Source: Octopus vulgaris (taxonomy: Eukaryota). Taken from it: DNA of 64,000 bases. The notes under the pieces are model-generated. The model did no database searches, had not been told where the DNA came from, and saw only the letters and a program-made list of their open reading frames with translations. The stretch covers positions 117,118,001-117,182,000 of the forward strand of contig OX597818.1 in assembly GCA_951406725.2 (NCBI GenBank). The letters run 5' to 3'. Made by a program: the position numbers and the translations under genes. This document shows, in pieces, positions 15,434-62,199 of the stretch; position 1 is the first letter of the stretch; every line of letters begins with the position of its first letter.

Positions 15434-15622
15434 AATTGCTGCGTGGAAGGTGTTTGTAAGCCATTTAAGAAACACACAAAAGCCGTTACATGTTGAAGTG
15501 AATCGAATGGCTTTTGTGTGTTTCTTAAATGGCTTACAAACACCCTCCACGCAGCAATTGTTTTCGTTCCAGCACACGATCTCAGATCAAATCACTTGCT
15601 ATGCAAGTACATCTCCGTAATG
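15434..15622. mobile_element. Fold-back PLE-type insertion in (TA)n; same family as 49691
   Basis: Inverted arms 15434-15487 and 15506-15559, then a unique tail of about 63 nt to 15622; (TA)n on both sides. Confidence 0.8.
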
Positions 15623-16988
15623 TATATATATATATATATATATATATATATATATATATATATATATATATATATGTGTGTGTGTGTGTGTGTGTGTGTG
15701 TGTATACATATATATCATATATAAAATTAGTATACATTTAAGTACAAAGGGGCAAACCTTAACAGGTTGCTTAACATAATAGAAAGAATAGTCAAAAAGT
15801 CCAAGCCACAGTTAAGACCAAATTCGAAGGAAATGAAAAATAAAAACATTTACCATGTTTGACTTTTTATACATACAAGGCCACTGGTAGAAAAAAAATT
15901 CTATAATTTTTCCTATCCTATATTAATTTTAAGAAAGGATTTTAGCAACTGGTAGAAAAAATAATATATATATAATGTATATATAGTGCTAGATATTTCA
16001 TCATCATCATTGTCATCATTGTTTAACGTCCGCCATCCATGCTAGCATCACTACTACAGTTGGATTTACCTACAATCCACGACGTTTGCAAGACGATCAC
16101 CAAGTGATACATAAGTCAAGATTTTCAGAAACGCGTTACTTCCTTAAAGAAGGATATTCCCGCATATAGAATCAGCTCTATGCATATTGAAACTCCGACC
16201 CCGCAGTATTTAAGCATAATACTCCTCATTTGACTGGAGGAATATATAGAACTACACGCATTCTGTGGTGAATGTATTACAGGCATCTATTTCTTAATAA
16301 TATTAGAAATTTAATAATTGTAAAGCAACAAATCACATTCAGATGTTTGATAAAGGAATAAATTGTCAGCATTTGTAATTAGAAAATGTTAATTGTGTTT
16401 CGTGTGTTTATTGGAAATTACGTACTGAGTTTTTGTCTTATTTCAGATTGATCGTGATATAGCAATAAGTCAATATAGTGTGAATATCTCATATGCTTTC
16501 AGACAAATATTTAATGAAGATGTATAAATTTCTGGTCAATAACCTCTCTCACAAAAAAGAATTTCTGTCTTGTTTCGAAATGCATTATTGAAATGGTGAG
16601 CCATCGGCGCAAGCAGGTTTGTCGAGTTATGAAGTTCGTATTACGACGCCATGTCTCAGATTTCGCTCTCACACTACGGTAGCTACTGGGAACGGAGTTT
16701 CATAGCATGACATGTATTATGCTATTGGAATTTAATAAAAGGCGGAGAAACTGACTTTGTTCGAGCAGACACACACACACACATACACTGACAAACACAC
16801 ACTCATACGTATGAATATATCTACCTATATAAACACATGCGTAGACATCTGTGTGTGTAGCTGGACCGAAATGGACACTCATATTAACAATGGTTCGGTG
16901 TTTCAGCATCAGACTTTACGTACCTAGGTATCTTTATAGCATTTAGCACTTCTTTTCACCCATGAAACATGTGATGTAGTGACATATA

Positions 16989-17546
16989 TTTTCTACTTCA
17001 GGCACAAGGCCCAAATCGATTAGATCGACCCCAGTACGCAACTGATTCTTAATTAATCGACCCCGAAAGTATGAAAGGAAAAGTCGACCTCGGCGGAATT
17101 TGAACTCAGAACGTACAGACAGATGAAATACCTATTTCTTTACTATCCACAAGGGGCTAAACACAGAGGGGACAAACAAGGACAGACAAAATGATTAAAT
17201 CGATTACATCGACCCCAGTACGTAACTGGTACTTAATTTATCGACCCCGAAAGGATAAAAGACAAAGTCGACCGCGTCGGAATTTGAACTCAGAACGTAG
17301 CGGCAGACGAAATATCTATTTTTTTACTATCTACAAGGGGCTAAACACAGAGGGGACAAACAAGGACAGACAAACGGATTAAGTCGATTACATCGACCCC
17401 AGTGCGTAATTGGTACTTATTTAATCAACCTCGAAAGGATGAAAGGCAAAGTCGAACTCGGCGGAATTTGAACTCAGAACGTAGCGGCAGACGAAACATC
17501 GCTAAGCATTTCGCCCGGCGTGCTAACGTTTCTGCCAGGTCGCCGC
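16989..17546 (-). mobile_element. SINE family B trimer
   Basis: Three units of about 178 bp, one head, one tail. Confidence 0.9.
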
Positions 17547-20500
17547 ACAGACAGAAAATTATGTGCACAAGTTCGCATTTCTATCCCCTATTGTCTCCTC
17601 CTTTGTCCATCATAATCCGGCCACTTCAATTTTTAGCGATACTGAATCAGGTATGCAGGGTTATAATCCAAACTGTATCCTCTTGAAGCACATCTGATTA
17701 TCCCAGTACTCCATACTTGTATGTAAATGTTAGATTTGTGTCAGGTATGCATAAGAGTTGAAAAATACCGAGGAATATTGTTTTCCTGAGTATTCACATA
17801 TTAGAACAAGAAACTAGTTAAAGATTTTTCTTCGTATTATGTATTATGTATTATGTATTATGTATTCACTATTACACGTGTTTCATTCGCTACGAGATGT
17901 TACAAAATCGTGCAAATACGAAAAGAAGCCTGTAAGATATCTCCTACTAGTAATCATACAGGCATATATATATATATATATATATATATATATATATATA
18001 TATATATTCATACATTCATATATACATACATACATGCACACTCACACACAACACATGATAATTCTGCTGCTTTTTAATAAAGTATATTGCTATACCTCTG
18101 GACATCGAGTACAATTTTTTCCCACCTTGTCTCGCATTTATGTGCTTACTCTGGTACTCTGGTATATATATATATATATATATATATACATAAATAAAAA
18201 ATTAATTAATTAATTAATTAATTAATTAAGAAATAAAATAATATATAAATATAAAAATATACATACATACATACATATATATATATATATTTGTATATAT
18301 ATATAAAATTTATAAGTTTAAATTATTCAAATAATTTTTTATTTTTAACTTTTAGATTTTTAAATTAATTTTATGTATTGGCTTATGTTTTTCACTGTTT
18401 GATTTGCCTAATAGTGGTTTTATCTCTAATTTAATATATATATATATATATATATATATATATATATATATCATACCCCATTGTTTTATTGATGAAATAA
18501 TTTCATCCATCGGATCATCAAGATTTCAGCTACATGGACATTCTACATTATATTTCCTGTAGTCGATTACTATGTTGATTGTTAGTCCAATTCATAAGAG
18601 GAGCTCTTAAGAGTTTTGTGATACTATATGTATATATATATATATATATATATATATATATATATACATTGGGTATCTAGGTAGTAGATCTGCACACTTA
18701 ATGTGTGAATATGCCCTTTCTTATGTGTGAGTGTATTCATGTTTACATACCTTCCTTCAATGAGAAGAACGATGACAAATATCTACTAGAAAGGAAATCG
18801 GAATAGAAAGTATCTACAATGTAAAGATAGAAAAAGATTGCGTATACCTGTGTAGATGTAAGCATATATATATATATATATGCATACTTAAAAATCAATG
18901 TATGTATACACACGCATAGACATTTTTTTAATACGCTTTTCATCTGTCGAAGTATATCGAAGCAGGTACCACCATATACGGAAATCTTCGAACCCACCAA
19001 CAAAGGCAGTATTAGCTTCACGCCAACGCGTATATTGCTAATCTTGAGAACTACAGTTGCAAATATAATGGCAGCAGGAAACTGCAATCTCCATGCCAGC
19101 AGCTTCAGGAATTTTGAGTATTTCATTAATAGTTAGTAGAACATATCAAGACATATTTATCATATTTCTCGCATGTTGCCCAACTTTTGAATATCTTTCT
19201 CACAGAAAAAAAAATGCTTGTAATTATTCAAAGCTAAATATAAAATTAACTCCGATTGAAAATCACTACTAATTAGCATCGGGATTTGTTTTCAAAAGAT
19301 TGTAATTGAGGAGATATGACAAAGCATAATATAATATTTGTGTCTGACCTGAGGATCAAGGATGGTAAATATTATAAAGGGTAATGTTGAATACATAATT
19401 GATCGATGCCAAGTAGTAAGTTGTCCATTGTATAGTACATCAATGCCGACAGGGGTTGACTTCAGACCTTGAAAAGCAGTAAATTATTGCTGCTAGACAT
19501 TTCGTATAGCGTTCCACCCATTATGCCAATAGGCCGTTTAAGACCAATATTGAAATCATTACATTTAAGCATCACGACCACAATATTAACAAACATGCTA
19601 CACCACAATCATAATATTATACACGCTACGAAAACTGAAATGACACATTATATCCGTTTAATTATTTCCCTTTATTTTCTGTTATGTTACCAATTAAGTA
19701 TACCAAAATATCATCGAAAATATTTCCTCCTGTTAAATACCATTGTACAATAATGAACTGAGTATCAAAGGTATTAATTTAAAAACTGCATGTTTCTGCC
19801 CTATGTCTTTAAGAATCGCTAACAGTAGACGCAACCTTTGTTTCTTTTCTCCCAACAAAAAGTAAATTAAAATTCATTTAGAAAATATTTAATATCATTA
19901 AAAAGACGAGTTGAAAATAATCAATCCTACACGCTAAAGAAATGATCAAGGTGAGTTTTAATTCTATTAACTTTTTGTAGCGCTAATTCTATCCTTATAT
20001 TTGCTGATTAACATCAGGATTGATTGAAAAATGCTTTGAAAAAACTAATACACCATATAAAACCAATAACGGTGATTTAAACCATTTACAAATGGCACTC
20101 AGCTGGCAAAAAAAGGAGTAGCACCTGTATTTGAAAGGGTCAGCCTTATCACATTAGCATGCGATCTCTGTTAAGTACAGCTGCATTATATTAAATTGAA
20201 AGTTAAGAAATAGAATGCCTTCTTAATTTGAAACACAAGAATACCAAATGTTGCGATTCTGGTCTTCATACAAATAATGAATTATAAAGTAATAAATTGT
20301 TCAGAATTCGGTTAGAATTGTGCATGAGGAATTGAGTGATTTATGACAAGAAAACGAATAAATCAAAGGCAGAATTTTATTATTTGACAATTAAAACACC
20401 CATTGCTAAAACCCGATCGCATTTCTCAAAAATGGACAACTATTTGGAAAATCAAGTCTAACCAGAGACCTTAAGATTAGCTCTTTTATGCCGTGCTCTT

Positions 20501-61140: not shown

Positions 61141-61231
61141 GGTCACCTATGGACGCACGTTTCGGAATTAGGTTGGAAGGAAGAATATAGAATTATACTC
61201 TACCAACCGTTTTCCTCTTCAGCATAGGACC
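61141..61231 (-). ncRNA. Type I hammerhead ribozyme
   Basis: CCTATG-CTGAAGA-GGAA..GGTTGG..CCAACC..TTCC-GAAAC-GTGC-GTC-CATAGG; all core residues present; predicted cut at 61152/61151. Confidence 0.9.
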
Positions 61232-61584
61232 CCATCAATAATTAGATATTGAAATATTAAATTCGAAGGTACTGGAATAATTGAACATATCTCTCCACCT
61301 AGCGGTATCAAACAGATAATATTCAGTGTTAGTACCGCCGGATACCCTTTGTTATTATTGGTAATAGAATGTTCTCCCTGATAACAAGCTACAGATTTTT
61401 TTCTGTAGTAGTTTACTTGTAGACACACGAGGACGGGCAGGGGAGGGTAATTGAACCTCATTCATGTTTTGAATCCGGCGGTACTAACACTGAATATTAT
61501 CTGTCTGATACCGTTAGGTGGAGAGATATGTTCAATTATTCCAGTACCTTCGAATTTAATATTTCAATATTTAATTATTGATGG

Positions 61585-61675
61585 GGTCCTATGCTGAAGA
61601 GGAAAACGGTTGGTAAAGTATAATTCTATATCCTTCCTTCCAACCTAATTCTGAAACGCGCGTCCATAGGTGACC
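61585..61675 (+). ncRNA. Type I hammerhead ribozyme
   Basis: CCTATG(61588)-CTGAAGA(61594-61600)-GGAA..TTCT-GAAAC(61653)-GCGC-GTC(61662-61664)-CATAGG; stem III ACGCGCGT is a perfect palindrome. Confidence 0.88.
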
Positions 61676-62199
61676 AGATATTGATTGATTTTCGTTACTG
61701 CTTCCTCTCTGCCTGTGTGGATTGTTTTCAAGTATTTTGGTTTTTCTGGGAGTCCCTTTTTAAAGTAAAAGAAATAGCTAACGTCTTTTGGCTGCTATTT
61801 CTAAACTTCGGTATGTGGTAAAGCAAATCTTTGCTGAACCCTAATTATTTAGTATTATATATATATATATATATATATATAAGGCAAGGAACAAAATGGA
61901 AAAGAGATTCAATTGACAAACATCAGTAAGATATATATTTATTATAATTATAGGAATAAATAAATAAATGTCAACTTTGTAGCATACTGGAACCCCAAAG
62001 TAGAAACAGCCATGAGGATTTTTGTATTGAAGTACGAGATGAATTCCGCAGTACGACCACACAAATATATCTTTAAGGTAATTCAGTTAATAAAACCAGC
62101 TTGCATATTTCTTTTGCATTCTCTTTTTCATAATTGACATTTTACCTGTAACTAGAACTTTTCTGTTTTAAATACCACAAAACATTATTTTTGAGTGTT

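What the first reader, a model, noticed from the sequence alone, without database searches (positions are those of the whole stretch)
15434..61857. A recurrent class of ribozyme-bearing fold-back retroinsertions from several different sequence families
Seen: seven essentially non-coding insertions (15434, 31886, 35009, 39745, 49691, 51049, 60863) share one architecture. Two copies of an element 3' end point outward, and one copy stops short of the terminus, leaving a single tail of about 63, 38, 100, 66, 60, 22 and 96 nt respectively. Five are flanked by (TA)n on both sides, and five carry whole or partial hammerhead motifs. Established: PLEs carry minimal type I hammerheads in their pLTRs and often insert with an inverted 3'-truncated pLTR. 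Inference: these are miniature PLE derivatives that mimic MITEs but arise by two priming events on RNA, targeted to microsatellites. They occur about once per 9 kb, and each is a potential source of hairpin dsRNA and self-cleaving RNA.
Basis: partly seen in the sequence, partly recalled or inferred. Interest (0 to 1): 0.88.

Follow-up and report, generated by a model that had tools for sequence, protein, structure and literature searches.

The report
Double-primed Penelope fold-back insertions
These seven mirror-image insertions are stumps of Penelope-like jumping genes with an already described shape, but their copies show that the two arms nearly always stop at two different fixed sites and carry the same sequence variants, which likely means one RNA (for some families possibly a ribozyme-made circle) is copied onto both sides of the DNA cut.

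Summary
The seven fold-backs are real and belong to six repeat families of Penelope-like elements (PLEs), not MITEs. Three families (four insertions) run upstream into RT and/or GIY-YIG frames. The other three are 300-600-nt non-coding tandem units with a type I hammerhead, like retrozymes. All six keep an intact hammerhead core. The layout (inverted truncated copy, one-sided tail, (TA)n targets, ~10-bp duplication, two RT start sites) is published, and this scan noted the same on several other genomes. What the copies add: each family has two fixed 3' ends, about 27-100 nt apart. In end-unbiased searches 41 of 49 fold-backs pair a near end with a far end and none pairs like with like. The arms share diagnostic variants (388 of 422 sites). 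A young sister family has multi-unit arms of one haplotype per locus. Best reading: both cut target strands prime on one RNA, possibly a circle. The 51049 copy is decayed and its 22-nt tail is not the family tail; 15434 has no hammerhead; 5' ends ignore the cut site. Expression, cleavage and editing were not shown.

The parts
15434..15487 (-). Family 15434/49692: short inverted arm ending at the proximal site
15489..15622 (+). Family 15434/49692: arm ending at the distal site, tail about 15563-15622; starts downstream of the hammerhead, so none is present
31886..31950 (-). Family 31886: inverted arm ending at the proximal site
31951..32424 (+). 3' end of a young ORF-bearing PLE (RT, CX4CxxC linker, GIY-YIG upstream in other copies), ending at the distal site
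32298..32341 (+). Minimal type I hammerhead with U3:A8 core and palindromic stem III; predicted cut after 32335
35011..35308 (-). Family 35009 (547-nt tandem unit): long arm with the 3' half of the hammerhead; tail about 35011-35106
35308..35373 (+). Family 35009: short arm ending at the proximal site
39745..39891 (-). Family 39745 (ORF-linked): arm ending at the distal site, hammerhead lacking its first core box
39891..39960 (+). Family 39745: arm ending at the proximal site; a 20-nt deletion removes the cut site
49680..49690 (+). Left copy of an 11-bp target-site duplication (right copy 49962-49972)
49692..49833 (-). Family 15434/49692: long arm ending at the proximal site, with a decayed G3:C8 hammerhead
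49836..49961 (+). Family 15434/49692: arm ending at the distal site, 60-nt tail
51049..51172 (-). Family 51049 (about 306-nt tandem unit): decayed arm stopping about 15 nt short of the proximal site, next to another repeat
51200..51360 (+). Family 51049: decayed arm with a mutated 3' half of the hammerhead, ending about 8 nt past the proximal site
60863..61343 (-). Family 60863 (598-nt tandem unit): arm ending at the distal site, whole hammerhead (core 61222-61152), tail 60863-60958
61344..61855 (+). Family 60863: longer arm ending at the proximal site, whole hammerhead (core 61594-61664)

Best explanation
These are truncated Penelope-like retroelement insertions whose two arms end at two different fixed sites of the element, most likely because the enzyme cuts both target strands and reverse-transcribes one RNA from both cut ends. 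Shown: PLE identity, the two fixed ends, their pairing, shared variants between arms, 10-14-bp duplications in one family, short microhomology at the central joint. From published work: the GIY-YIG domain cuts AT-rich DNA on both strands and RT starts at two internal sites that bound the tail (PMC11167929). Inferred: one target end starts at the proximal site and the other at the distal site in a coupled way; the two cDNAs run toward the RNA 5' end and are joined head to head. Inferred for the ORF-linked 15434/49692 family: priming in the leader copy of the pLTR runs off at the transcription start, which explains the tiny size. Inferred with less certainty (about 0.55) for the non-coding tandem families: the template is a ribozyme-cut, circularised monomer that a PLE enzyme copies round and round. 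The hammerhead is probably not what sets the ends of the insertions.
For: ORF links: L232 RT (PF00078, E 4.6e-8) plus GIY-YIG; L225 GIY-YIG about 1 kb upstream of the 15434 pLTR (E 1.9e-5); L231 a 2.2-kb fold-back whose long arm holds broken RT and GIY-YIG frames, read by eye. Ends are bimodal in all six families. Outside the biased loci, five families gave 78 of 92 fold-backs proximal+distal, 1 distal+distal, 0 proximal+proximal, 13 other. Searches whose query held neither end gave 23+8+10 = 41 mixed, 0 matched, 8 other, although solo insertions use both ends. Arms agree at 388 of 422 diagnostic sites against 47-59% between insertions. The proximal arm reaches further 5' in 20 of 78 and the distal arm lies only in the tail in 3 of 78, so it is not a copy of the first cDNA. 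Joints overlap by 1-14 nt in 33 of 47. Duplications of 10 bp or more in 17 of 20 non-microsatellite sites against 1 of 190 shuffled pairs. Young 593-nt sister family: 15 of 16 fold-back arrays mixed-ended, up to 11 unit pieces, 0.42% and 0.61% divergence within and between arms against 1.87% between loci; 14 fixed haplotypes in 20 loci, locus-private variants in both arms of 5 loci.
Against: No ORF-bearing partner was found for the 35009, 60863 or 51049 families. The older 51049 family breaks the pairing: by my reading 5 mixed (3 are one duplicated locus), 2 proximal+proximal, 1 distal+distal, 2 unresolved. L125 is distal+distal and three 39745 copies end at a third site. L361 carries mixed haplotypes across its arms. 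PMC11167929 saw no difference in start site between the two strands in vitro. Shared variants could also come from two RNAs of one source locus or from gene conversion; homogeneous arrays could come from linear multimer transcripts. Each search scored only the top 40 of 227-3442 candidates, and the 20 arrays were picked for length.
Confidence: 0.75

Rival explanations
1. Self-priming on an antisense transcript makes the head-to-head structure and the endonuclease then trims the intermediate at two fixed sites (proposed in PMC3846280 and, for the tail, PMC8557442).
For: Would also give arms with shared variants and both geometries; some joints are short palindromes.
Against: RT starts at the two tail boundaries on sense RNA in vitro (PMC11167929). 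Solo insertions use the same two ends. 5' ends of the 15434 family pile up 20-29 nt upstream of the hammerhead as a sense start would predict. Multi-unit arms in both directions are hard to get this way.
Confidence: 0.1
2. Two separate RNA molecules, held by an asymmetric enzyme dimer, each prime one target strand.
For: A dimer is predicted for the anole enzyme. L361 and a few 15434 copies show different variants in the two arms.
Against: 92% agreement between arms at diagnostic sites across five families and locus-private variants in both arms would need both RNAs to come from one source locus nearly every time.
Confidence: 0.1
3. One cDNA started at the distal site folds back and is copied to the proximal site.
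For: The distal arm is the longer one in 41 of 78.
Against: In 23 of 78 the other arm holds sequence that the first cDNA would lack (window 60863, L231).
Confidence: 0.04
4. True MITEs moved by a DNA transposase.
For: Inverted ends and about 10-bp duplications; a few central joints recur in the 15434 family (L226, L227, L229).
Against: Inversion points and interiors vary, ends are asymmetric, solo and tandem copies exist, and three families join PLE frames.
Confidence: 0.01

Closest known systems
Insertion structure of endonuclease-bearing PLEs (Adineta Pen2a, PMC3846280; PMC8557442 Fig. 2 legend)
   Same: Partial tandems, inverted 5'-truncated copy, tail on one arm only, 8-10-bp duplications, (TA)n preference, C-terminal GIY-YIG.
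   Different: Tails here are family-specific, about 27-100 nt against the 30-40 bp described; here the near/far pairing is counted and is almost strict.
Poseidon of Anolis carolinensis, internal initiation of reverse transcription (PMC11167929)
   Same: Two start sites bound the tail; both strands cut and extended; ribozyme cleavage not needed; in the 31886 family the distal site folds into an AC-rich loop (prediction).
   Different: The paper saw no strand difference in start site and, in the parts read, does not explain the inverted copy.
Minimal type I hammerheads of PLE pLTRs (PMC4209133)
   Same: Short palindromic helix III, U3-A8 variant, extra base between 9 and 10.1, pairs 100-700 bp apart on opposite strands.
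   Different: A G3:C8 core (15434/49692 family) gave no match for 'G3-C8' in that paper; helix II is very long in two families.
Metazoan non-LTR retrozymes (PMC7229834; bioRxiv 10.64898/2026.07.22.740005) and non-autonomous Chlamys such as MRC1 (PMC8557442)
   Same: Non-coding tandem units with one type I hammerhead each; PLE mobilisation and a circular template were proposed.
   Different: Units reach 547-598 nt (150-450 bp described). They carry the PLE tail and inverted arm, which I did not find reported for retrozymes. Circular RNA is not shown here.
L1 twin priming (recalled, no call)
   Same: Both target ends prime on one RNA and give an inversion joined by microhomology.
   Different: In L1 the second primer lands at a variable place and the parts do not overlap; here both sites are fixed and the arms usually overlap.

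Membership tests
Endonuclease-bearing Penelope-like elements | RT followed by a C-terminal GIY-YIG in the parent family | tested here: met
   31886: both domains. 15434/49692: GIY-YIG only within the stretch held. 39745: broken RT and GIY-YIG frames read by eye.
Endonuclease-bearing Penelope-like elements | ORF-bearing parent for the 35009, 51049 and 60863 families | tested here: inconclusive
   None found in the loci fetched; searches see only the top 40 candidates.
Endonuclease-bearing Penelope-like elements | Partial tandems, inverted truncated copy, one-sided tail | tested here: met
Endonuclease-bearing Penelope-like elements | Type I hammerhead in the pLTR | tested here: met
   Majority core intact in 21-66 copies per family; paired changes in stems I, II and III between the two 60863 subfamilies.
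Endonuclease-bearing Penelope-like elements | Short target duplication and AT-rich or (TA)n targets | tested here: met
   duplication measurable only in the 15434/49692 family
Neptune or Nematis clade | CX2-5CxxC linker before GIY-YIG and placement in an RT tree | tested here: inconclusive
   Linker motif present in 31886 and 15434 frames (motif); no tree built; the Nematis label for 39745 is recalled.
Non-LTR retrozymes | Non-coding tandem units, one hammerhead per unit | tested here: met
   35009 (547 nt), 60863 (598 and 593 nt), 51049 (about 306 nt):
Non-LTR retrozymes | Expressed, self-cleaved and circularised RNA | not testable with these tools
   No holder on record as RNA, contigs only.
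MITEs | Fixed symmetric terminal repeats and constant interior | tested here: not met

The most novel reading that the evidence does not exclude
Animal retrozymes are inserted by PLE enzymes through double-primed rolling-circle reverse transcription: both cut target strands start on one circular hammerhead RNA, at two fixed and mutually exclusive sites, and each can go round several times, giving head-to-head multimers of a single haplotype. This would answer how retrozymes move and how the PLE inverted copy arises.
Probability: 0.45. Interest if true: 0.72.

Novelty: new member of a known kind. Interest (0 to 1): 0.42.

Why it matters
The shape is known, but how PLEs make their inverted copy and what mobilises animal retrozymes are stated as open in the papers read. 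Near-strict pairing of the two ends, shared variants between arms and single-haplotype multimer arms turn both questions into simple tests. Such hairpins occur about once per 24 kb by a strict count, which extrapolates to over 100,000 in this genome. They can be mislabelled as MITEs and would form double-stranded RNA wherever they are transcribed.

Tried and rejected
Rfam scan: no hammerhead in the rows shown, only chance microRNA matches. Ribozyme cut as the source of 5' ends: 0 of 46 (60863) and 1 of 42 (35009) starts within 1 nt of the cut. Twin hairpin just behind both ends (lead e1-8673755): no significant fold in 45 nt after either end in five families, z -1.6 to +1.3; the wider region spanning both ends folds at z about -3 in 3 of 4 families (prediction only). 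Apparent arm discordance in the 35009 family was an alignment artefact of the TA flank (corrected in 50). Nearby PLE frames at L118/L251 and L254 are not linked to the tandem families. Sequencing runs: no RNA holder listed; laying four contig sets on 60700-62000 could not show expression, editing or an empty site; a second laying did not complete. An extra G at the 15434 5' pile-up would fit a cap, but the search query favoured it and only 4 of 9 unbiased ends show it, so it is not counted. One search opened the wrong paper and is not used.
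Full report
Observation. The window is G000:C5:117118001-117182000 in a 2.8-Gb genome; its repeats look like an octopus genome to me, which is recalled and confirmed by no call. Self-comparison finds all seven head-to-head repeats. Five have (TA)n on both sides, 49692 has an 11-bp duplication and 51049 abuts another repeat. 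A hammerhead descriptor allowing 3:8 covariation gave 4 hits against 0.35 in 20 shuffles, three of them inside 31886 and 60863; a stricter form gave 6 in 490 kb elsewhere and 0 in 5 shuffles. 15434 has no ribozyme sequence; 35009, 39745 and 51049 have parts; 49692 is whole but decayed.

Families. The seven belong to six families, with 227-3442 first-look candidates per search, of which 40 were scored. 31886 is the 3' end of a young element: many copies run upstream into a frame with RT and GIY-YIG. 15434/49692 joins a GIY-YIG frame in L225. 39745 joins broken RT and GIY-YIG frames in the long arm of a 2.2-kb fold-back, L231 (read by eye, not run against Pfam). 35009, 60863 and 51049 are head-to-tail non-coding units of 547, 598 and about 306 nt; no ORF partner turned up. 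All six have an intact majority hammerhead core: four C3:G8, one U3:A8, one G3:C8 with an extra base after A9. Core sites are better kept than other sites in two families (0.989 vs 0.929; 0.976 vs 0.948), about equally in three and less well in 51049 (0.862 vs 0.89). Two subfamilies of 60863, about 71% alike, differ by paired changes in all three stems.

Ends. Each family has two clusters of 3' ends, about 27, 48, 60, 68, 95 and 97 nt apart. Inversion points vary. Leaving out loci, whose query was itself a mixed-ended fold-back, five families gave 78 of 92 fold-backs with one near and one far end, 1 far+far, 0 near+near and 13 other; most of those queries favoured a far end. Three queries held neither end: 23 of 24, 8 of 12 and 10 of 13 fold-backs were mixed and none matched (duplicates merged, the query's own locus left out, and hits to the reference's repeated end re-read by eye; some loci overlap the 92). 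With free choice at most half would be mixed, so 41 of 41 has odds near 5e-13. Solo insertions use either end. The old 51049 family is looser, and the window copy is one of its exceptions.

Template. Arms of one insertion agree at 388 of 422 diagnostic sites, against 47-59% for arms of different insertions. The near-end arm reaches further 5' in 20 of 78, and in 3 the far-end arm lies wholly in the tail, so one arm is not a copy of the other's cDNA. Central joints overlap by 1-14 nt in 33 of 47. At non-microsatellite sites 17 of 20 insertions of the 15434 family have 10-14-bp duplications (two in simple runs), against 1 of 190 controls. 5' ends do not mark the ribozyme cut. In the 15434 family most long arms stop 14-29 nt upstream of the hammerhead, with a peak at 23, and only a few run far beyond; a transcription start there is my inference. 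The 39745 family shows a broader cluster.

Young sister family. A search with a diverged 60863 copy found a 593-nt family with copies up to 100% alike in arrays. Of 20 arrays picked for length, 16 are fold-backs and 15 of these are mixed-ended, counting one whose last unit has a deletion. Units differ by 0.42% within an arm, 0.61% between arms and 1.87% between loci. There are 14 fixed haplotypes in 20 loci; variants shared by only some units occur in 3 loci; private variants lie in both arms of 5 loci. A single-monomer template, as a circle would give, explains this most simply; transcripts of homogeneous arrays or gene conversion are not excluded, and L361 is mixed.

Abundance. A strict scan that catches 3 of the 7 window cases found 16 in 390 kb of spaced stretches and 3 in 100 kb beside the window, so the window is not unusual.

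Literature. PMC3846280 (passages): inverted pLTR, 31-bp tail on one of the inverted copies, 8-10-bp duplications, antisense self-priming proposed. PMC8557442 (passages): inverted truncated copy, 30-40-bp tail at one end, (TA)n bias, non-autonomous multicopy Chlamys. PMC11167929 (parts 1-2 of 4): two internal RT starts bound the tail, both strands extended, cleavage not needed. PMC4209133 (passages): minimal hammerheads, U3-A8, opposite-strand pairs, low cleavage. PMC7229834 (passages and discussion) and bioRxiv 10.64898/2026.07.22.740005 (parts 1 and 3 of 5): retrozymes, circular template and PLE mobilisation proposed. PMC8969392 (passages) lists inverted pLTRs and extensions as known peculiarities. 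Searches showed no paper that counts end pairing or reports the tail for retrozymes. I saw no supplements; those of PMC8557442 (family lists including Octopus) and PMC11167929 may bear on this, and Repbase and Dfam could not be searched. Earlier AI notes of this scan reach a like reading on other genomes; they are not evidence, and none concerns this genome.

Verdict. Real, PLE-derived, known in shape. The value lies in the counts that constrain the mechanism and in the retrozyme-like families that carry the PLE signature. RNA-level claims remain untested.

Noticed in passing
window 14115-14366: Symmetric terminal inverted repeat without a tail, looks like a true MITE and makes a useful contrast.
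   Followed up: no
window 9013-11293: Large nested inverted repeat (about 700-bp arms, 78%) enclosing a second 265-bp fold-back at 9890-10154.
   Followed up: no
window 17013-17546, 23586-24336, 44794-45214, 53546-54152 and others: Very abundant repeat with 184-bp head-to-tail units; no hammerhead hit from my descriptor.
   Followed up: no
window 50945-51052 (also 1089-1213, 8744-8868, 21738-21862, 52391-52513): Short dispersed repeat with a tRNA-like look (by eye) directly abutting the 51049 fold-back.
   Followed up: no
L232 3874-5184 minus: Full-length 31886 element has an extra 437-aa frame with no Pfam match upstream of and overlapping the RT frame; frameshift or intron possible.
   Followed up: partly
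L232 and L372, just before the distal end: The ORF-bearing 31886 family and the non-coding 593-nt family share a 10-nt motif just before the distal end; related motifs in 35009 and 60863. A hint at the partner enzyme.
   Followed up: partly
L367 about 806: One arm of the young family ends 3 nt before the predicted ribozyme cut, a possible case of priming at a cleaved RNA end.
   Followed up: partly
L254 5804-6692: A 60863-like piece and a 35009 copy lie head to head, both ending at distal sites; mixed-family event or two insertions.
   Followed up: no
L137, L138, L227: Three 39745 copies end at a third site about 24 nt past the proximal one.
   Followed up: no
L186, L196, L197, L247-L250, L262, L263, L265, L269: Further asymmetric (TA)n-flanked fold-backs from other families, tails 27-122 nt.
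   Followed up: partly
window 55084-55501: (AT)n run of about 210 units.
   Followed up: no
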